Source of the DNA: Brevinematales bacterium | GTDB lineage: Bacteria; Spirochaetota; Brevinematia; Brevinematales; GWF1-51-8 | Direction of reading: 5' to 3' | Assembly (NCBI GenBank): GCA_013177895.1 | Contig: JABLXV010000007.1 | Location: 23,992-87,991 of the forward strand | DNA: 64,000 bases | Part shown: positions 4,993 to 55,450 of the stretch, piece after piece | How the letters are laid out: every line of letters starts with the position of its first letter | Numbering within the stretch: the first letter of the stretch is position 1 | The notes under the pieces: model-generated | The model's database searches: none | Told to the model about the DNA's origin: nothing | The model's input: only the letters and a program-made list of their open reading frames with translations | Position numbers and translations under genes: made by a program

Positions 4993-7900
4993 TTATTGAA
5001 GGTAGGGGCTGGTCAACCCTACATCCGACAGCTTAAACGTACCGTTCAGGACATATACCCTGAGGTTACCCTGACCCGAACAGTTGACGGTGATGGAGCC
5101 GCCGTTAGCGATACTCTTCACATCGCCGGTCACTATATCTTTATAGGTTCCGCCGGGGAGGTTGTTAAAGGTCGCCCCGCCGGATATAGCTACGATACAG
5201 AAGCTGTCGACTCCGCCTACGGTGAAGCGTTTTTTAAACGCCAGGCCGCCGGAGACGTTCTCGGTGGAATACTGCCCTTTCTGGAGAGCCGGCACATGAT
5301 GGCGTATCCAGTTGAGACACTGTATATGTTTGGCGAGCGGGTAATTCAGCGTATTCGCCATCTCTCCGGTCGCGTTATTCCATACCGCGAAATCGGTAAC
5401 ATTAACGCTGCCCTCGATATGCGCGCCGAAGTACGCGCGGCCGGTGTTTTCGAGAGGCATATTCGGGCCGACGTCGATAGGACAGCCCTTCTTAAACTCG
5501 ATTTCCGACCCGTAGAAGATACACGGTATGCCGCGGAATGTGAACATCAGGGAAAGGTTCTCCGCCCATGTCGCCTGCGATCCCACGAAACGTTTCGTGC
5601 TGTCCGGCGAATCCGGCGCGTAATCGTGCGAGTCCACATAGGTCACGTTCCATGTCGCGTCGTTATAGGTATAATCCCACCCGTGTACGCCCCATGCCGT
5701 CCCGGCATCCTGGAAATTCCAATGCATGCAGAAGTCGATGACCTCTAATCCGGAGGACTTCGAGTAATCCGGGGTATGGTAGTTATTCCCGTAGAGTAAA
5801 TGGTTATCGCTGGACTGCTGCGAGCCCGGGTCGATATTGTCGTACCAGCATGCGTATGCCGCGTCGGTATCGCTCATCCCGTCGTAGTTATGGTTTTCCT
5901 TCCACGTATAGAACGGGGGCGAAACCGGCGGAAGGTTATTATTCCAAATCTGGCGGTAACGCGAGCAGACCTCGCCGAAGATGAAGAAGTTCGGCCCGCC
6001 GCGAAGTTTGAACGCCGGAATAAAGTACTTATTGAAGATGAAGCGGCTGATATGCTTGACCGTATCCACACGGAAAGCGTCCACTCCCATATCGATCATT
6101 TTATTATAAGCGTCGATCAGGTACTGGCGTGTCACGGGATTTTCCGTATTGAAGTCCTGGCAGTCGCCCGCTATAGACGTACTCTGCACGGTATAGCCTT
6201 CCCAGTCTCCGCACCAGCCCTTATGATAGAGCGGGCTGTTCTGTATCTGGGTGAAACGGCTGACATACTGTTCGTTCGGGGTAAGGGTATAATCGTTGGT
6301 CGGGGTAAACAGTCCGACCGCGCCCCAGTTCCCGGAATGGTTCAGCACGATGTCGACCACGAGCTTGATATCCCTCGCGTGACATTCGTTAATCAGTCTC
6401 TGGAGGTCGTATCCGGCCGATTCATAACGGGGATCGACGATAGTAAAGTCATACCCGTGATACCCGTGATAATCGTAACCGCTCATATTCTGTATGACAG
6501 GGGTGATCCAGACCGCGCTGAAACCGAGCGCTTTGATATAGTCGAGCTTCTCGATCAAGCCCTTAAAGTCGCCTCTCCATGACGGGTCGTTGGGATAGTT
6601 CCCGGCATGCTCGTCATCCCATCCGAACGCGTTGTTCGCGGGATCGCCGTCATAGAAGCGGGTTGTAATCAAGAAATAGATCGTCTCCTCGCGGAAGTCG
6701 CCGCGCGGGAGTATATTCGCGACAGTCACCTTAACCGTATCGCTATGAGTAGCCCCGGCGTCGTCGCGGACAGTCAGCGTCCAAGTGAACGGACTGCCGT
6801 TCGTATCGGTATAGGTATAAACCGGCGATACGCCGCTCAGGGTATGCCCCGCGCCGTCCGTCCATGTATAGGATACGATTGTCCCGTTGGGATCGTATGA
6901 CTGCGCGCCGTTAAACTGTAACGGCAGGCCGGACACCGCGAAGATATCGCTTCCGGCATTCGCTACAGGCGGCACGTTCGCGTTCACAGTGGAGACCGTC
7001 ACTACCGCCGATACCGTGGAGTTCATCACGTCGTACGCCTTCGCGGTCAACTGGTGCGAACCGTTGGCGACAAACGCGCTGTTCCATGTAATCGAATAAG
7101 GCGCGGTCGTATCGTTGGTAATCAGCTTATTATCGACATAGAACTCGACCTTAGTCACCCCGATATTGTCGGATGCATCGGCCGAAACGGTAACATTACC
7201 GGTAAGGCCGGTGGCGCCGTTCGCGGGAGCGGTCAGGCTCACGGTCGGGGGCACCGTATCGTCGGGGTTCTGGTCGTACCATACCCCTTCTTTATACCAA
7301 CCCTCTTTATCGCGGGTCAGGTCTACCGATTGGGGAGAACCGTTGTTATTGAAGACAATTTTAGCATAAGTCTGGTTGGTGAGCACATAGTAATACCAGT
7401 CGCCGCCTTCGCTCGCCATCAGCTTGCCCGGCCATGTGGTCGCGAGCGCGCCGGGAAGCGTAGCCCAGTAATGGATATATGCTTTCGTCCATGACGTAGG
7501 TTTCTTGAAATGCACCGCCAGTCCGGGAGCCTGCTGCTGAGGCTGAATAGTAATATTAACCGTCCTGATCGCGCTGGTGTTCCCGGCCTTATCCTTCGAA
7601 TAAACCTGTATGGTATAGGTGTTCGGCGGAAGCGACGTGGTGAACGACCAGTTCGCCGAGGAAGAAACTTTTACAAAATCTCCGCCGGTGGAGAGATAGA
7701 TTCCCTCCAAACCGGTGCCGGTGTCGGCGGCAGTCCCGGAGAAAGTGATATTCTGGTTCTGGGTGGCATACCCGTCGGAGGGAGACGAGATAGCCGCGGT
7801 GGGAGCCTGCGTATCGAGAATAACCTTGACGGACGGCGAAACCGCTGTCTTGGTATTCGCGGCGGTCGCGCGGGCGATCAGTACGTTCGTACCTTCGGAA

Positions 7901-30541: not shown

Positions 30542-31888
30542 ATGCCTAAATCGAAAAGTTTATTTGTCTGCGGGGAATGCGGGTATAAAACCTCGAAATG
30601 GCTGGGGAAATGCCCGCAATGCGGAGAGTGGAATACCTTCATCGAGGAAATCGAATCGTCCGAACCCGCGCATCATCCGGCCGCCGTATCCGTTATTCAT
30701 CCTATCCCCATCGGCGAGGTCGAATACTCGGAAAGTTCCCGTATATTCACGAAAATAGACGAGCTTGACCGCGCGCTCGGGGGAATTGTCCCCGGGCAGG
30801 CCGTCCTCGTATCGGGCGAGCCGGGTATCGGGAAATCCACCCTGCTCCTCCAGACTGCCGGGGCTCTCGCGGTCAACCATACCGTATTCTACGTCAACGG
30901 CGAGGAGTCGAACCCGCAGGTAAAATCCCGAGCGTCGCGTCTCGGCCTGCAATCCAAGACCATGTACCTTTTCAACGAGAACAATCTCGACAGTATTATC
31001 GCGCGGGTTTCCGCCGATAAGCCGGACTTCCTGTTCGTCGATTCGCTCCAGACCCTCTACTCGCCGCGTTACGCGTCCCTGCCGGGCAGCGTCCTTCAGG
31101 TGCGGGAGTGCGCCCATGAGCTGATCTCGCTCTCGAAGGGGCTGGGCATCCCGGTGTTCCTCGTGAGCCATATCACTAAGGGCGGGGATATCGCCGGCCC
31201 GAAAATAGTCGAGCATCTGGTCGACACCGTACTCTATATAGAAACCGACACGCGCGGGTATTACCGTATCCTGCGCCCGCTGAAGAATAGATTTTTTACC
31301 ACCGAGGAGGTGGGGTTTTTCACCATGGGGGAGAACGGACTTGCGGGGATCGAGGATATTTCCACCGCGTTCACATCCATCCATAGCGGCGCGGTGAACG
31401 GGGTGTCCGTATTCCCGATGATCGAGGGGAACCGCGTGTTCCCGGTGGAGATTCAGGGTTTATGCGTCGCGTCGCAGTTCAGCTATCCCCGCCGCGCGGC
31501 CGACGGGATCGACCTGAACCGGCTCTATATGCTCGCGGCGATTATGGAGAAACGTCTGGGCGCAAACCTTGCCGCGTCGGATTTATATGTGAATATCACA
31601 GGCGGGTTGACTATCGACGATCCCGCGCTCGACCTCGCGGTCATTTTCGCGGTCTATTCGTCGCTCAAGGATAAGCCCGTATCGCTGGATACGATCGTAT
31701 TCGGGGAGGCCGGGTTGACCGGCGAGGTGCGCCCGGTGTTCAGGATGGAGAAACGGCTGGCTGAGGCGAAACGCCTCGGGTTCAAGCGCGCGGTGGCGCC
31801 GTATCAGCAGAAGGGGATCAAGCCGCCCGACGGGATAACCGTACTGCCGGTAAAGAGTATCGACGAGGGTATCGCGCTAATCGGATGA
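30542..31888 (+). CDS. radA: DNA repair protein RadA
   Basis: The ORF is 448 aa. It has the zinc ribbon CGECGYKTSKWLGKCPQCGEW, the Walker A motif GEPGIGKSTLLLQ and the RadA motif LKNRFF. A Lon-protease-like C-terminal domain is present. Confidence 0.95.
   Translation: MPKSKSLFVCGECGYKTSKWLGKCPQCGEWNTFIEEIESSEPAHHPAAVSVIHPIPIGEVEYSESSRIFTKIDELDRALGGIVPGQAVLVSGEPGIGKSTLLLQTAGALAVNHTVFYVNGEESNPQVKSRASRLGLQSKTMYLFNENNLDSIIARVSADKPDFLFVDSLQTLYSPRYASLPGSVLQVRECAHELISLSKGLGIPVFLVSHITKGGDIAGPKIVEHLVDTVLYIETDTRGYYRILRPLKNRFFTTEEVGFFTMGENGLAGIEDISTAFTSIHSGAVNGVSVFPMIEGNRVFPVEIQGLCVASQFSYPRRAADGIDLNRLYMLAAIMEKRLGANLAASDLYVNITGGLTIDDPALDLAVIFAVYSSLKDKPVSLDTIVFGEAGLTGEVRPVFRMEKRLAEAKRLGFKRAVAPYQQKGIKPPDGITVLPVKSIDEGIALIG
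31861..31888 (+). repeat. Left copy of a 28-nt direct repeat (the radA 3' terminus including its stop)
   Basis: The sequence cgacgagggtatcgcgctaatcggatga recurs at 32784..32811 with a single T/C difference that is synonymous for Gly. Confidence 0.9.
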
Positions 31889-31900
31889 ATCAAATCTAAA

Positions 31901-32041
31901 TCATAGATGCTTTTTTACTTTTACTACGATTATTATTACTACTACAACAATAGCAATAATAATCACAGCAGTTACAACTGAACTTACCGTATCTTGAATA
32001 GATTGCATAGCATTTGTAACATTATCAAGAAATTTATTCAT
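31901..32041 (-). CDS. Small single-pass membrane peptide (46 aa), AT-rich
   Basis: This ORF is below the ORF-track size cut-off. My translation gives MNKFLDNVTNAMQSIQDTVSSVVTAVIIIAIVVVVIIIVVKVKKHL. The RBS context is AAAAAAGGAGAAATT-ATG. A possible promoter reads TTGATA-17-TATAAC upstream on the minus strand. Confidence 0.5.
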   Translation of the reverse strand: MNKFLDNVTNAMQSIQDTVSSVVTAVIIIAIVVVVIIIVVKVKKHL

Positions 32042-32239
32042 AATTTCTCCTTTTTTATTATTTACGGTTATAACATCTTTATACTACTATATCAAGGTTA
32101 TATAATTATTATATAGAAATATTTATCTTCTATTCTTTTCCGCGTAAATCCGTCCAATCCGTGAAACCAGTGTGAAATTTTATGGGTCGATAAGAATAGA
32201 GTATGGTTTTAAAAACTCATTGCAACTCCTAAAAAAGAC

Positions 32240-32725
32240 AATCTTCATTTCTTTCTGAACGGCCAGAAAGAAATGAAGCAAAGAACCCCGCACAAGAATG
32301 CGGGACAAGCGAGCCGCCGCGCAAATAAAGCTTATAAGAAGTTCCGGGAAATCCGAGTCGGGCGTAACTCGCAAGCATGTTCCGTGCGAAGCGAAAGCAG
32401 GCCTACGTCGGACATACGCCCTTGTTCGGATTTCCCGGTAGTAAGAAGCGCTTTAAAGTGCGCGGACAGAACAACCGAAAGGCATAATTCTTTAGTAATT
32501 TTATATTTGGCTGTTCACCCCCGCCGCTGTGAGGCGACTTTTGCTAAGCGAAACGGAAAGAAACGCCGTTTGTTCGAGCCTTGATCTATCTCGCATCAGT
32601 GATTTCTCCCGCGGCGAGTTACGGCGTTTCCCGTTTCGCGCCCCTCTGCTTGAGAGCGTCATCCCGGCGGGAAACCTCTTTCTTTCGTTCTTTCTTTCTG
32701 GGTTCGCAGAAAGAAAGAACAATGG
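32240..32725. other. ORF-free, GC-rich, highly self-complementary element of about 0.5 kb with hairpin termini (candidate large structured ncRNA or MITE/PATE-like element)
   Basis: A perfect 15-bp hairpin lies at 32243-32278 (cttcatttctttctg/aacggc/cagaaagaaatgaag). A perfect 14-bp hairpin lies at 32687-32720 (gttctttctttctg/ggttcg/cagaaagaaagaac). The flanks interior to the two hairpins are inverted repeats of each other. A central 95-nt hairpin at 32344-32438 has 13-bp and 7-bp perfect stems. The only ORFs are low-complexity and basic. Confidence 0.5.
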
Positions 32726-32783
32726 CTTTTTATGTTCAAAAGGAGTTTTTGGAATCCCCTAGAGTATCATTGCTAAAATGGTT

Positions 32784-32811
32784 CGACGAGGGCATCGCGC
32801 TAATCGGATGA
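32784..32811 (+). repeat. Right copy of the 28-nt direct repeat (a duplicate of the radA 3' terminus)
   Basis: The sequence cgacgagggcatcgcgctaatcggatga matches 27 of 28 positions of 31861..31888. Weaker similarity extends about 10 nt further 5'. Confidence 0.9.
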
Positions 32812-32922
32812 TTTCTTTCCGCGGCGGACTATCGCGACAATGACGATTATTACAATGATCGCCGCAAATATGACCCCGACGCCCATGAGAAGTTCCGGCA
32901 ATCCTTCGAATATCCCAAACAT
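32800..32922 (-). CDS. Small single-pass membrane peptide (40 aa)
   Basis: My translation gives MFGIFEGLPELLMGVGVIFAAIIVIIVIVAIVRRGKKSSD, in frame over 123 nt, with GAGGGG upstream. The last four codons and the stop lie inside the right 28-nt repeat. Confidence 0.45.
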   Translation of the reverse strand: MFGIFEGLPELLMGVGVIFAAIIVIIVIVAIVRRGKKSSD

Positions 32923-32959: not shown

Positions 32960-33094
32960 TCAGTCTTTTTTGCGCTTTGCCCTGACGACAATAACAACCG
33001 CAGCCGTTATGACGATCACCCCGGCAATAATTGAGATAACCAGAATCCGATTGGCATTGAAAAATTCGATAAACATGGCAGTAAAACTTGTCAT
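32960..33094 (-). CDS. Small single-pass membrane peptide (44 aa)
   Basis: My translation gives MTSFTAMFIEFFNANRILVISIIAGVIVITAAVVIVVRAKRKKD, in frame over 135 nt, with GAGGTG upstream. Confidence 0.45.
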   Translation of the reverse strand: MTSFTAMFIEFFNANRILVISIIAGVIVITAAVVIVVRAKRKKD

Positions 33095-33150
33095 ATACAC
33101 CTCGTATAAATAAAAGCCCCCCGGAAGGGCTTGTCGATAAACTGTTTTAT

Positions 33151-33305
33151 GTCATTGCGAGGCGTCATGGTGAGCACTTGTCCCGCGTTCAGCGGGATGT
33201 CGAACCATAGCCGAAGCAATCTATTTTAATACCATCTAAGGAATAAAATAGACTGCTTCACCCCGCGTAGCAAAAAATACTGCACCGCGGGGTATCGCAG
33301 TGACA
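33151..33305 (+). repeat. REP/MITE-like element of about 155 nt (same family as 29855..30010, 55290..55378 and 58552..58637)
   Basis: It contains gtcattgcgaggcgtcatggtgagc, ccatagccgaagcaatctatttt, atagactgcttcaccccgcg and ggtatcgcagtgaca. Internal hairpins include tcccgc/gttca/gcggga. Confidence 0.75.
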
Positions 33306-55141: not shown

Positions 55142-55289
55142 AAAAATCTCCTTACGATATCAGTAGGATTATTATACAGGCTGAATTTAAAATGTCAATT
55201 GTTTAAGGGAAAGACGCCGGAGAAAACATCATGGGCAGTTCTAATAGCTCAATAAAAATGCCAAAATTACTAAATATTTAGATACCCCT

Positions 55290-55378
55290 GTCATTGCGAG
55301 CGTATGCGAAGCAATCTATTCTATTGTCATTTAATAAATTACATAGACTGCTTCGTCACTGTGTTCCTCGCAGTGACA
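55290..55378 (+). repeat. REP/MITE-like element (short member of the gtcattgcga..gaagcaatct..atagactgcttc..cagtgaca family)
   Basis: The sequence is gtcattgcgagcgtatgcgaagcaatctattctattgtcatttaataaattacatagactgcttcgtcactgtgttcctcgcagtgaca. Internal inverted repeats are gaagcaatctat/atagactgcttc and gtcactg/cagtgac. Confidence 0.75.
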
Positions 55379-55450
55379 TAGTAATATCTTTTTTATTCGA
55401 TAATTATGCGTATTCATTTCATTTCCATGAAGTTTTTAGAACCACCCTCA

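What the first reader, a model, noticed from the sequence alone, without database searches (positions are those of the whole stretch)
32240..32725. ORF-free, GC-rich block of about 485 nt with perfect terminal hairpins and a 95-nt central hairpin: large ncRNA or hairpin-ended MITE?
Several structural features are visible directly. The left terminus folds as a perfect 15-bp hairpin (32243-32278) and the right terminus as a perfect 14-bp hairpin (32687-32720). Both stems have almost the same sequence (ttctttctg / cagaaagaa). The sequences just interior to the hairpins (gaagcaaagaa versus its near-complement ttctttcgttc) are inverted repeats. The two ends can therefore also pair with each other in a roughly 20-bp closing helix that competes with the local hairpins. 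The centre folds as a 95-nt hairpin (32344-32438) with perfect 13-bp and 7-bp stems, ccgggaaatccga/tcggatttcccgg and gggcgta/tacgccc. More GC-rich stem-loops are present, such as cccgca/caagaa/tgcggg. All ORFs here are short, basic and low-complexity. Subterminal hairpins at both ends recall IS200/IS605-derived non-autonomous elements. The dense nested helices recall large structured RNAs or a retron-like msr/msd, but no reverse transcriptase, TnpA or TnpB is nearby.
Basis: partly seen in the sequence, partly recalled or inferred. Interest (0 to 1): 0.7.

Follow-up and report, generated by a model that had tools for sequence, protein, structure and literature searches.

The report
IS5-type MITE with triplex-capped core
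The hairpin-rich block is the body of a roughly 558-bp non-coding miniature transposon of the IS5 kind that occurs in several copies in related Brevinematales genomes, and its two ends carry a motif, shared with repeats in other bacterial phyla, that is predicted to fold into a triple helix capped by a pseudoknot.

Summary
Both perfect terminal hairpins and the central hairpin are present, and the fold z-score is about -8 on either strand. No frame has a called protein homologue and no Rfam family matches.

The block is not a single-copy gene. It is the interior of a 558-bp element (32201/2-32759) with about 40-55-nt imperfect terminal inverted repeats (consensus GGGCGGTTCTAAAAACTC) and a 4-5-bp target duplication, TAGA(G). 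A sister lineage has the exact empty site. Copies of 70-78% identity sit at unrelated intergenic sites in two related genomes. The same inverted repeats bound a second small element in this window, hundreds-of-bp MITEs in related genomes, and a 1,284-bp IS encoding an IS5-family transposase.

The interior keeps a branched fold through compensatory changes, with no strand asymmetry.

Each end carries a pyrimidine/purine hairpin, an adjacent tract that is its mirror image, and 4-6 nt that pair with the hairpin loop. This is an intrastrand-triplex (PIT-like) motif capped by a pseudoknot. Convergent pairs of such modules flank 230-1,030-nt non-coding cores in Burkholderiales, Megasphaera, Bacteroides and Prevotella. 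None occur in 881 kb of control DNA.

Verdict: a MITE carrying a structured, triplex-capped passenger. Whether RNA or DNA is the active form is unresolved.

The parts
32197..32201 (.). Left copy of the target-site duplication, TAGA(G). It is 4 or 5 bp because the G at 32201 may be the first base of the element.
   Evidence: The empty site in L086 reads ...GATAAGAATAGAGCATCATT.... The junctions were read, and the end alignment is A7.
32202..32242 (+). Left outer terminal inverted repeat, (G)TATGGTTTTAAAAACTCATTGCAACTCCTAAAAAAGACAAT. The terminal GGGC is mutated to GTAT in this copy.
   Evidence: Alignments A3, A5 and A7. The family consensus is GGGCGGTTCTAAAAACTC, shared with the IS5-family IS in L217.
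32243..32278 (+). Left pyrimidine/purine hairpin: Y1 32243-32257, loop AACGGC 32258-32263, R1 32264-32278.
   Evidence: I10. Compensatory changes occur at two stem positions across copies (helix 2).
32279..32285 (+). Remnant of the mirror purine tract R2 (CAAAGAA). It is cut short in this copy by the optional hairpin. It is intact in L090 and other copies (CAAAGAAAGAG).
32286..32309 (+). Optional 24-nt insert containing the cccgca/tgcggg hairpin. It is present here and in L125, absent from L090, L143 and L195, and sits at another position in L128.
   Evidence: Alignments A1 and A4.
32313..32316 (+). X' (GCCG), complementary to loop bases CGGC at 32260-32263. This is the predicted pseudoknot stem of the left module.
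   Evidence: Loop/X' covariation within the family: CGGC/GCCG, CGGG/CCCG, GTGTC/GACAC, TGTG/CACA.
32314..32469 (+). Domain A. Helix CCGCCGCGC.../...GUGCGCGG encloses the 95-nt central hairpin (32344-32438), which has conserved unpaired TAACTC and CGTCGGACA.
   Evidence: helices 5-8, with 8 pairs changed on both sides.
32469..32516 (+). Hairpin B. The stem (G)AACAaCC/GGcUGUU(C) is conserved and the loop varies in length and sequence.
   Evidence: helix 9.
32518..32672 (+). Domain C. CCCCGCC/GGCGGGG closes a long hairpin with the GCGAAACGG/CCGUUUCGC and AAACGCCG/CGGCGUUU stems.
   Evidence: helices 10-15, with 7 pairs changed on both sides.
32673..32720 (+). Right triplex/pseudoknot module (class IV orientation on the + strand). 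X'' AACC 32673-32676 pairs with loop GGUU 32701-32704. Pyrimidine third-strand tract Y2 is 32677-32686. The hairpin is Y3 32687-32700, loop 32701-32706, R3 32707-32720.
   Evidence: The generic detector finds this as the only such module in the 64-kb window, with 12-bp arms and a 10-nt mirror. (I15) and one search also support it.
32721..32759 (+). Right outer terminal inverted repeat. Its reverse complement reads GGGGATTCCAAAAACTCCTTTTGAACATAAAAAGCCATT.
   Evidence: Alignments A3 and A7.
32760..32764 (.). Right copy of the target-site duplication, TAGA(G).
31851..31888 (+). Outer layer, not part of the MITE: the 3' end of radA, duplicated at 32774-32811 (87% identity). The two copies bracket the 923-bp insertion in which the MITE sits.
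   Evidence: D1. L001 is the uninterrupted site.
32774..32811 (+). Second copy of the radA 3' end (outer layer).
   Evidence: (D1).

Best explanation
The block is the interior of a roughly 558-bp non-autonomous transposon (a MITE, or 'mobile insertion cassette') at window 32201/2-32759.

Shown:
- It has imperfect terminal inverted repeats of the GGGCGGTTCTAAAAACTC type and a 4-5-bp target duplication.
- It has an exact empty site in a sister lineage.
- It has dispersed copies in related genomes.
- An IS5-family insertion sequence with the same ends exists in a related genome.

Inferred: a DDE transposase of that IS5 lineage, encoded elsewhere in the genome, binds the outer repeats and moves the element in trans.

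Between the repeats the element carries a passenger with two features.
(a) A branched fold is shown to be maintained across copies by compensatory substitutions.
(b) Each end has a 'cap' made of a pyrimidine/purine hairpin, an adjacent tract that is the mirror image of the purine arm, and 4-6 nt that pair with the hairpin loop.

I infer that each cap folds as an intrastrand triple helix crowned by a pseudoknot. On the strand read outwards this is an H-type pseudoknot whose U/C tract lies in the major groove (U.A-U and C+.G-C triples). On the strand read inwards it is the purine-motif version, which only DNA can form.

The most likely role, which is inferred and untested, is to lock the single-stranded form of the element into a compact, nuclease-resistant fold. 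That form could be a transcript that runs through the element in either direction, or the DNA strand exposed during replication or transposition. Such a fold would also explain the clean loss of the element between its short direct repeats in one lineage.
For: Ends and mobility.
- L086/L087/L088 read ...AAGAATAGAGCATCATT... exactly where the window has TAGAG + 558 bp + TAGAG.
- The terminal repeats align over about 55 nt (A3).
- Full-length copies of 67-73% identity occur in GWF1_51_8 (L128, L143, L125, L195), with partial copies in L145 and L114. GWF1_49_6 has L111 and L113 besides the orthologous L002/L090.
- All copies are intergenic.
- L143 has a perfect TTTAT duplication.

Same ends on other elements.
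- A 215-bp element at window 55233-55447 has the same ends and a TCAT duplication.
- 125-205-bp elements with these ends occur in dozens of copies in Spirochaetota MFD03726.bin.1.50 and relatives, with TTAA, ATAA or TTAT duplications.
- A 1,284-bp IS (L217 1119-2402, TATA duplication) has the same ends. Its 351-aa ORF scores 270 bits on NF033581, IS5 family transposase (cutoff 140), and also matches PF01609 and DUF772.

No coding capacity.

Conserved fold.
- 92.5% of cells are paired, against 88.4% when shuffled.
- 20 pairs change on both sides, against 13.2 +/- 1.8 (0 of 500 shuffles reach this).
- The covariation score is 0.104, against 0.055 shuffled and 0.023-0.051 for slid partners.

Caps.
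- Mirror arms are 9-12 nt, and every tract variant is mirrored: AGAAAGAAA(G/A/AA/AAA), GAAAAAGAA, AAAAGAAAAA, AAAGAGAAAG.
- The mean loop/X' complementary run is 3.85 against 2.83 +/- 0.08 in 89 instances. It is 4.06 against 2.69 +/- 0.21 in 18 modules that were not selected by the search pattern. No permutation out of 2,000 reached the observed value in either test.
- There are 19 convergent module pairs spaced 230-1,030 nt apart in five lineages.
- There are 0 modules in 881 kb of control loci and 1 in the window.

Published precedent. Y-R-R intrastrand triplex motifs (BoxC/PIT/TMECO) are known to be abundant in bacteria. Purine-motif triplexes do not form in RNA, whereas pyrimidine-motif ones do (PMC4666352).
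Against: - No transposase with these ends was found in the window or in the same genome. The IS5 partner comes from a genome whose RadA is only about 55% identical.
- At 558 bp the element is large for a MITE.
- The left terminus in this copy (GTATGG) is degenerate, and its left cap lacks most of the mirror tract. This copy may therefore be immobile and only half 'capped'.
- The lineage without the block (L086) is nested between lineages that have it. The polymorphism therefore reflects a precise loss or a second gain, not a simple single insertion.
- Triplex and pseudoknot formation rests on sequence symmetry and covariation only. No structure probing exists.
- Copies fall into about two subfamilies, so the number of independent compensatory events is smaller than the cell counts suggest.
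- Stems tolerate G.U no better than A.C (12 against 16). This gives no support to a single-strand RNA reading.
- Concerted evolution of inverted repeats could mimic part of the covariation.
Confidence: 0.75

Rival explanations
1. The passenger is a genuine structured non-coding RNA gene of about 480 nt, carried and spread by the MITE. It is transcribed from one strand and acts in trans or in cis, for example as a stable regulatory or scaffold RNA. The 3' cap would act as an exonuclease block, as the MALAT1/ENE triple helices do.
For: - The branched, non-rod fold shows compensatory changes and conserved unpaired motifs (TAACTC, CGUCGGACA). It has variable-length hairpin loops and optional hairpin inserts.
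- cUUCGg loops appear on the + strand in several copies.
- The A-rich tracts favour U.A-U triples, which RNA can form (established triplex chemistry; PMC4666352).
- The outward-facing cap is followed by a T-rich run on both strands.
Against: - No Rfam family matches.
- No conserved promoter was found (and inspection of A4).
- There is no G.U over A.C excess on either strand.
- The caps are symmetric, so neither strand is favoured.
- The orthologous site in a sister lineage lacks the block without any visible compensation.
- No expression data exist.
Confidence: 0.3
2. The structure matters only as DNA. The caps are H-DNA or intrastrand-triplex plus cruciform motifs, and the interior hairpins extrude from single-stranded or supercoiled DNA. 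They would promote synapsis or excision of the element, stall replication or create instability. The 'covariation' would then reflect selection on, or concerted evolution of, DNA palindromes.
For: - Stems are strand-symmetric: G.T and A.C mismatches are equally rare.
- The module occurs in the same orientation relative to both ends, as parts of inverted repeats do.
- In other phyla the cores are near-perfect foldbacks typical of inverted-repeat-derived MITEs.
- Bacterial Y-R-R triplex motifs form in DNA and are linked to genomic instability (PMC4666352).
- The precise loss in L086 fits slippage across a folded element.
Against: - A-rich purine-motif triplexes are weak compared with the G-rich BoxC type (established triplex chemistry).
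- The same outer repeats mobilise elements without any caps: window 55233-55447 and the 204-bp MITEs. The caps are therefore not needed by the transposase.
- The Brevinematales core is branched rather than a simple foldback.
Confidence: 0.3
3. The block is an IS200/IS605-type non-autonomous element (PATE) or a retron-like msr/msd.
For: Only the presence of subterminal hairpins and dense nested helices.
Against: - Terminal inverted repeats and a target duplication are present. IS200/IS605 elements have neither.
- No TnpA, TnpB or reverse transcriptase lies within about 5 kb.
- The ends match an IS5-family IS.
- Rfam has no retron or omega-RNA match.
Confidence: 0.02
4. The block is a leftover of an integrase-borne island that integrated into the 3' end of radA.
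For: - A 38-nt duplication of the radA 3' end brackets the whole 923-bp insert.
- L001 has the uninterrupted site.
- L084 has a different 1.08-kb insert (a DUF4300 gene) bracketed in the same way.
Against: L086 carries the radA-end duplication and the about 190-nt insert without the block, so the block is a separate, later layer. The block also occurs at unrelated loci elsewhere.
Confidence: 0.05

Closest known systems
MITEs and mobile insertion cassettes derived from IS5-family insertion sequences
   Same: Non-coding. Terminal inverted repeats match those of an IS5-family IS. 4-bp (here 4-5-bp) target duplication, intergenic, multi-copy, with presence/absence polymorphism.
   Different: It is 558 bp, with a passenger that is not a simple deletion derivative of the IS. 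The passenger has a branched fold kept by compensatory changes, and triplex-type caps that the related IS and the small MITEs with the same ends lack.
Potential intrastrand triplex (PIT) elements: BoxC / TMECO of E. coli and relatives (Hoyne and Maher 2000; Holder et al. 2015, PMC4666352)
   Same: The architecture is a pyrimidine arm, a loop, a complementary purine arm, a short spacer and a second purine tract that mirrors the first (class II). The complement gives class III/IV on the other strand. Both are abundant dispersed repeats.
   Different: - The tracts are A-rich (GAAA-type) rather than G-rich CCCTCNCCC/GGGNGAGGG.
- The modules occur as convergent pairs capping a 230-1,030-nt folded core.
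- They carry an extra, covarying pairing between the hairpin loop and the bases after the third strand.
- They sit inside transposon-like inverted repeats.
3'-end triple helices of MALAT1, MEN-beta and PAN ENE, and the double ENEs of plant and fungal transposon RNAs (Tycowski et al. 2016; reviewed in PMC13541005)
   Same: About 9-12 consecutive U.A-U/C+.G-C major-groove triples are predicted around a purine-rich 3' strand. There is an association with transposable elements and a proposed protection of RNA ends.
   Different: The topology differs: here it is an H-type pseudoknot with the third strand immediately 5' of the hairpin, not a U-rich internal loop clamping a tail. The setting is bacterial. 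The element is a DNA transposon, not a retroelement. No experimental evidence exists.
H-type pseudoknots with major-groove triples (telomerase RNA, SAM-II, SAM-V and preQ1-II riboswitches)
   Same: The order is S1(5')-L1-S2(5')-S1(3')-S2(3'), with a pyrimidine L1 lying in the major groove of S2.
   Different: S2 and the triplex are two to three times longer. There is no ligand pocket or template. The module is repeated and mobile.
REP/BIME, ERIC and Correia (NEMIS) elements
   Same: Dispersed intergenic palindromic repeats that fold in transcripts and can stabilise or process flanking mRNAs.
   Different: Different sequence, size and ends. None is described with paired triplex caps.

Membership tests
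MITE / non-autonomous DDE transposon (IS5 family-related) | Terminal inverted repeats at both ends | tested here: met
   About 55-nt imperfect repeats (A3). The consensus GGGCGGTTCTAAAAACTC is shared by 10 ends (A7).
MITE / non-autonomous DDE transposon (IS5 family-related) | Short target-site duplication of family-typical length (4 bp for the IS5 group; from knowledge of ISfinder conventions) | tested here: met
   TAGA(G) at the window element, TCAT at the second window MITE, TTAA/ATAA/TTAT at the 204-bp MITEs, TATA at the IS. L143 fits 5 bp (TTTAT) better.
MITE / non-autonomous DDE transposon (IS5 family-related) | No transposase coding capacity | tested here: met
   Only short ORFs are present. 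There are no called homologues in any frame.
MITE / non-autonomous DDE transposon (IS5 family-related) | Several dispersed copies in one genome | tested here: met
   At least 6 loci in GWF1_51_8 and 3 in GWF1_49_6. For the window's own genome only 64 kb could be read: one copy, plus one other MITE with the same ends.
MITE / non-autonomous DDE transposon (IS5 family-related) | Empty site in a related genome, bounded exactly by the repeats | tested here: met
   L086/L087/L088. The radA tree shows this lineage is nested, so the empty site is a loss or the insertion is a second gain.
MITE / non-autonomous DDE transposon (IS5 family-related) | Autonomous partner with matching ends in the same genome | tested here: inconclusive
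   An IS5-family IS with matching ends was found in L217, from Spirochaetota MFD03726.bin.1.50. None was found in the window, and the source genome could not be searched.
IS200/IS605-derived PATE | Subterminal hairpins without terminal inverted repeats and without target duplication, with a TnpA/TnpB partner | tested here: not met
   Inverted repeats and a duplication are present. No such gene lies nearby.
Retron msr/msd | Adjacent reverse transcriptase gene | tested here: not met
   The neighbours are radA, a LapA-domain protein, a TonB-dependent receptor, a HEAT-repeat protein, cmk and others. Copies elsewhere are flanked by unrelated genes.
Any Rfam 15 RNA family | Covariance-model match at or near the gathering score | tested here: not met
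   There were no matches at gathering score in the window or in 12 loci from several phyla. Only chance-level hits appeared at E up to 10.
Intrastrand triplex (PIT) motif, class II/IV | Pyrimidine arm, loop, complementary purine arm, short spacer, third tract that is the mirror of the purine arm | tested here: met
   The right module 32675-32719 has 12-bp arms and a 10-nt mirror. The left module is truncated in this copy and intact in L090 and others. Mirror, not direct, symmetry holds for asymmetric tracts.
Intrastrand triplex (PIT) motif, class II/IV | Actual triplex formation | not testable with these tools
   This needs CD/NMR, footprinting or structure probing.
BoxC / TMECO | Consensus CCCTCNCCC-N3-6-GGGNGAGGG-N3-GGGNGAGGG | tested here: not met
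   The tracts here are (GAAA)n-type, read from the sequence. The consensus is quoted from PMC4666352.
H-type pseudoknot with major-groove triplex | Second stem formed by the hairpin loop and a flanking segment, with the pyrimidine tract as L1 | tested here: met
   Loop/X' complementarity covaries. The test is in silico only.

The most novel reading that the evidence does not exclude
A cross-phylum class of mobile, non-coding 'triplex-capped' elements exists. Each end would fold, in transcripts leaving the element on either strand, into an H-type pseudoknot with 9-12 consecutive U.A-U/C+.G-C major-groove triples. This would be a bacterial counterpart of the MALAT1/ENE 3'-end triple helices, and among the longest natural RNA triple helices. 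It would make exonuclease-resistant structured RNAs, or stabilise the 3' ends of neighbouring mRNAs, and would be spread by MITEs.
Probability: 0.2. Interest if true: 0.8.

Novelty: new variant of a known kind. Interest (0 to 1): 0.55.

Why it matters
MITEs and intrastrand triplex motifs are each known on their own. What appears to be undescribed in the literature I could search has three parts:
- Triplex motifs occur as convergent pairs capping folded non-coding cores.
- They carry a covarying loop pseudoknot.
- The same design recurs in Brevinematales, Burkholderiales, Negativicutes and Bacteroidota with different tract sequences, each obeying mirror symmetry.

If the caps fold as predicted, two consequences follow. 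They would be the first long major-groove triple helices tied to bacterial mobile DNA. They would also give a directly testable handle on why some MITE interiors are under structural selection, whether through RNA stability, termination or insulation, or DNA-level control of excision.

In practice, these palindromes break short-read assemblies: a Logan contig ends inside the left hairpin.

Tried and rejected
- Rfam. Searches at gathering score and at E up to 10 on the region, and at gathering score on 12 related loci, gave nothing credible.
- tRNA/tmRNA scan: none found.
- Distant BLAST against the phage and plasmid collections: no match.
- 20-mer scans of the core. The genome collection returned only the orthologous contig. 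The metagenome scan returned one chance hit inside a his operon. The viral scan returned nothing.
- Translated searches with the 103-aa ORF and with a six-frame concatenate: no called protein.
- Exact look-up of RadA: only a Logan contig that stops in the left hairpin.
- Promoter/terminator scan. Promoter-like sites are at chance level. Both terminal hairpins score as weak outward terminators, but the T run starts 4-8 nt after the stem.
- Strand assignment by G.U against A.C: no asymmetry.
- Ideas considered from memory and dropped:
  - RNase P, group I or II intron, OLE/GOLLD/ROOL: no model match, and the element is dispensable.
  - Integron attC: no R/L boxes.
  - Xer/dif-like 11-6-11 recombinase sites: arm sequences differ between modules while mirror symmetry and loop pairing persist.
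  - Tn3-family ends: only GGGG and a 5-bp duplication resembled them, and the IS5 match is direct.
- Looking for a transposase between module pairs in other phyla found only a 110-aa ORF with no Pfam family in Bacteroides L131.
Full report
**1. The observation**

The sequence at 32240-32725 is as described. It contains:
- a perfect 15-bp hairpin (32243-32278);
- a perfect 14-bp hairpin (32687-32720) with nearly the same stem;
- a 95-nt central hairpin closed by a perfect 13-bp stem.

The shared pattern TTTCTTTCTG-N6-CAGAAAGAAA occurs only at these two places in 64 kb, with none expected by chance. Either strand folds about 8 standard deviations better than dinucleotide shuffles. ORFs are short. 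Neither the longest ORF nor a six-frame concatenate has a called relative among 5.8 billion proteins. No Rfam family matches, even at E = 10.

**2. Setting**

The upstream gene (30542-31888) is radA. Its closest relatives are Brevinematales MAGs at 92-94% amino-acid identity, so this is a bacterial chromosome.

The last 38 nt of radA are repeated at 32774-32811 and bracket a 923-bp insertion. L001 has the uninterrupted arrangement, with the radA stop followed directly by small membrane-protein ORFs. A more distant relative (L084) has a different 1.08-kb insert, a DUF4300 gene, bracketed by the same kind of duplication. The radA 3' end is therefore a recurrent insertion site. This outer layer is separate from the finding.

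**3. The block is a discrete mobile unit**

Contigs encoding a RadA from the same 90% cluster were fetched.

L090, which is the L002 type but complete, carries the block at the same place at about 90% identity.

L086/L087/L088 carry the radA-end duplication and about 190 nt of insert, but not the block. They read ...GATAAGAATAGAGCATCATT... where the window has ...AATAGAG + 558 bp + TAGAGTATCATT....

The inserted segment is bounded by imperfect inverted repeats of about 55 nt, of which the terminal hairpins are only the inner part (A3).

Aligned with other ends, the consensus terminus is GGGCGGTTCTAAAAACTC, preceded by a 4-bp (possibly 5-bp) duplication, here TAGA(G) (A7).

On radA nucleotide identity, L086 (96.6%) is sister to L090/L089 and the window (92.5%) is the outgroup. 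The element-free allele therefore reflects a precise loss between the short direct repeats, or less likely a second gain. Precise loss is known to be favoured by long inverted repeats (established knowledge of transposon precise excision).

**4. It is a repeat family**

Scans with 20-mers of the core found only the orthologous contig. A scan with the hairpin pattern found at least 120 loci. BLAST of the element against them found:
- full-length copies at 67-73% identity in Spirochaetes bacterium GWF1_51_8 (L128, L143, L125, L195);
- partial copies in L145 and L114;
- L111 and L113 in GWF1_49_6.

All copies are intergenic and next to unrelated genes. L143 has a perfect TTTAT duplication flanking GGGTAC...GTACTCCC.

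**5. The ends belong to an IS5-family lineage**

The same termini bound a second, 215-bp element in this window. It lies at 55233-55447, has a TCAT duplication and a different interior.

A scan with GGGCAGTTCTAAWARCTC found dozens of copies in long-read Spirochaetota MAGs (MFD03726.bin.1.50 and others) and in GWF1_49_6. Most are 125-205-bp MITEs with TTAA, ATAA or TTAT duplications.

One locus, L217 1119-2402, is a 1,284-bp IS with ends GGGCGGTTTTAAAAACC and GGGCGGTTTGAAAAACC and a TATA duplication. Its 351-aa ORF scores 270 bits on NCBIfam NF033581, IS5 family transposase (cutoff 140), and also matches PF01609 and DUF772. The left end of L090, GGGCGGTTTTAAAACTC, is nearly identical.

This makes the finding a MITE, or mobile insertion cassette, of an IS5-type lineage. 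The partner IS was found in a related genome, not in the same one.

**6. The interior is under structural constraint**

Ten copies align (A4). The consensus fold has these parts:
- the two terminal hairpins;
- a short closing helix;
- domain A, which encloses the central hairpin;
- a hairpin with a conserved stem and a variable loop;
- a long domain C.

On that structure:
- 92.5% of cells pair, against 88.4% when shuffled;
- 20 pairs change on both sides, against 13.2 +/- 1.8 (0 of 500 shuffles reach this);
- the covariation score is 0.104, against 0.055 shuffled and 0.023-0.051 for slid partners.

Examples of compensatory change are CCGGGAAAUCC/GGAUUUCCCGG to CCGGAAAAUCC/GGAUUUUCCGG, GGGCGUA/UACGCCC to AGGCAU/AUGCCU, and GCGAAACGG/CCGUUUCGC to GCGGAACGG/CCGUUCCGC.

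Two cautions apply. The copies form about two subfamilies, so independent events are fewer than the cell counts suggest. In stems predicted on both strands, G.U (12) is no commoner than A.C (16), so the data do not single out an RNA strand.

**7. The ends carry a triplex-type cap that is shared across phyla**

Outside Brevinematales the hairpin scan hit multi-copy repeats in Burkholderiales and other betaproteobacteria, Megasphaera, Oscillospiraceae, Bacteroides, Prevotella and a Helicobacteraceae MAG. These share only the following module with the window element: a pyrimidine arm, a loop X, a complementary purine arm R1, a 3-8-nt spacer, a second purine tract R2, and then 4-6 nt X'. Three regularities hold.

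(i) R2 is the mirror image of R1, not a direct repeat. Wherever the tract is asymmetric the mirror is kept: AGAAAGAAAAAA/AAAAAAGAAAGA, GAAAAAGAA/AAGAAAAAG, AAAAGAAAAA/AAAAAGAAAA. Arms are 9-12 nt.

(ii) X' is complementary to the loop and covaries with it. Examples are GTGTC/GACAC, TGCGAC/GTCGC, AGCGAT/ATCGC, GCCGCC/GGCGGC and GGCAA/TTGCC. The mean complementary run is 3.85 against 2.83 +/- 0.08 over 89 instances. It is 4.06 against 2.69 +/- 0.21 over 18 modules that my search pattern did not select. No permutation out of 2,000 reached the observed value in either test.

(iii) Modules come in convergent pairs, 230-1,030 nt apart, around strongly folded non-coding cores. There are 19 such pairs.

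A generic detector finds no module in 881 kb of unrelated loci and exactly one in the 64-kb window, at 32675-32719. The window's left cap is degenerate because the optional 24-nt hairpin interrupts R2. It is intact in L090.

**8. Reading of the cap**

Mirror-repeat purine/pyrimidine tracts next to a hairpin define intrastrand triplex (PIT) motifs. These are known in bacteria as BoxC/TMECO. In the published nomenclature, class II is pyrimidine arm, purine arm, then reverse-Hoogsteen purine strand. The complementary strand gives class III/IV. Purine-motif triplexes are excluded from RNA, while pyrimidine-motif ones form in RNA (PMC4666352).

Read outwards (5'-X''-Y2-Y3-loop-R3-3'), the cap has the topology of an H-type pseudoknot. 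S1 is X'' paired with the loop, L1 is the pyrimidine tract lying parallel to R3 in the major groove of S2, and S2 is Y3:R3. In the window this would be AACC(32673-76):GGUU(32701-04), with UCUUUCUUUC (32677-86) over AGAAAGAAAG (32708-17). That gives up to 10 triples (7 U.A-U and 3 C+.G-C) if the three basal pairs open to make the turn. This is inference from sequence.

The A-rich composition favours the pyrimidine motif over the purine motif (established triplex chemistry). That keeps an RNA reading open, but the symmetry of the element and of its mismatches fits a DNA reading equally well.

Elements with the same IS5-type ends but without caps exist. The caps are therefore a property of the passenger and not a requirement of the transposase.

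**9. What it most likely is and does**

Shown: a non-autonomous IS5-type element with a structurally constrained passenger and PIT-like caps.

Inferred: mobilisation in trans by an IS5-family transposase, and caps that fold as triplex plus pseudoknot.

Speculative: the caps lock the single-stranded form into a compact, nuclease-resistant fold. As RNA, they would stabilise the 3' ends of any transcript crossing the element in either direction, much as REP elements or ENE triple helices do. As DNA, they would influence excision, replication or stability, as reported for BoxC-type motifs.

Rivals and their tests are listed in the structured fields.

**10. Comparison and novelty**

MITEs of IS5-family elements and intrastrand triplex repeats are both known. 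I found no description of paired triplex caps with a loop pseudoknot on bacterial mobile elements. A 2026 review lists prokaryotic RNA triple helices only in riboswitches and group II introns, and transposon-linked ones only in plants and fungi. The literature library I could search is incomplete, so this is absence of evidence.

I classify the finding as a new variant of a known kind. Interest is moderate: the identity as a MITE is ordinary, while the cap architecture and its cross-phylum covariation are unexpected and directly testable.

Noticed in passing
window 31851-31888 and 32774-32811; L084 6300-6347 and 7425-7466: The last approximately 38-42 nt of radA are duplicated around insertions with different content. 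Here the insert is 923 bp. In L086 it is about 190 nt. In L084 it is 1.08 kb with a DUF4300 gene. L001 is uninterrupted. This looks like a recurrent site-specific (att-like) integration hotspot with no integrase nearby.
   Followed up: partly
window 31901-32041 (-), 32800-32922 (-), 32960-33100 (-): Three small ORFs (46, 40 and 46 aa) share one design: a short polar N-terminus, one very hydrophobic helix and a basic C-terminus. The first lies in a 25% GC segment present only in this genome's version of the radA insert. They have no Pfam family and are reminiscent of type I toxins or small membrane proteins.
   Followed up: partly
window 32140-32165; L090 4377-4400 and 4455-4485: (A/T)ATCCG(T/C) motifs recur at 10-nt spacing just left of the MITE. 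In L090 and L086 three inverted CGGAT motifs at 9-10-nt spacing lie about 45 nt upstream. This looks like a protein-binding array (operator or recombinase arm sites) in the radA-adjacent insert.
   Followed up: no
window 55233-55447: A second MITE of 215 bp has the same IS5-type ends (GGGCAGTTCTAATAGCTC / reverse complement GGGTGGTTCTAAAAACTTC) and a TCAT duplication. It has a different interior and no triplex caps.
   Followed up: partly
window 33148-33305 and 55271-55385; L001 7690-7800: Another small palindromic repeat family: TGTCATTGC ... CGAAGCAATCTATT ... ATAGACTGCTTC ... CGCAGTGACA. One copy lies just right of the finding. Another forms the interior of the second MITE. A third is at the orthologous place in L001.
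   Followed up: partly
L217 1119-2402; L212-L286 (Spirochaetota MFD03726.bin.1.50 and relatives): A 1,284-bp IS5-family IS and a burst of 204-bp and 164-bp MITEs share the same ends. In the 204-bp form each end is itself followed by its own inverted copy, giving a 36-nt hairpin.
   Followed up: partly
L131 6356-7483 (Bacteroides sp. SIG134): A pair of triplex caps flanks about 1.03 kb of long inverted repeats with a 110-aa ORF (6792-7124, - strand) that has no Pfam family. This is the only case seen with a possible coding passenger.
   Followed up: partly
L126, L131, L110, L101 cores: Cores of capped elements in Bacteroides, Prevotella and Megasphaera share the inverted pair GAACTCGCTTCGCTCAAACAGC / GCTGTTTGAGCG(A/C)AGCGAGTTC. 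The Brevinematales core has only AACTCGC in a similar position.
   Followed up: no
L083 5690-5730 (Logan SRR6186653 contig) and L002 end: Short-read contigs end inside or just after the terminal hairpins, so these palindromes break assemblies. This probably hides copies in MAGs.
   Followed up: no
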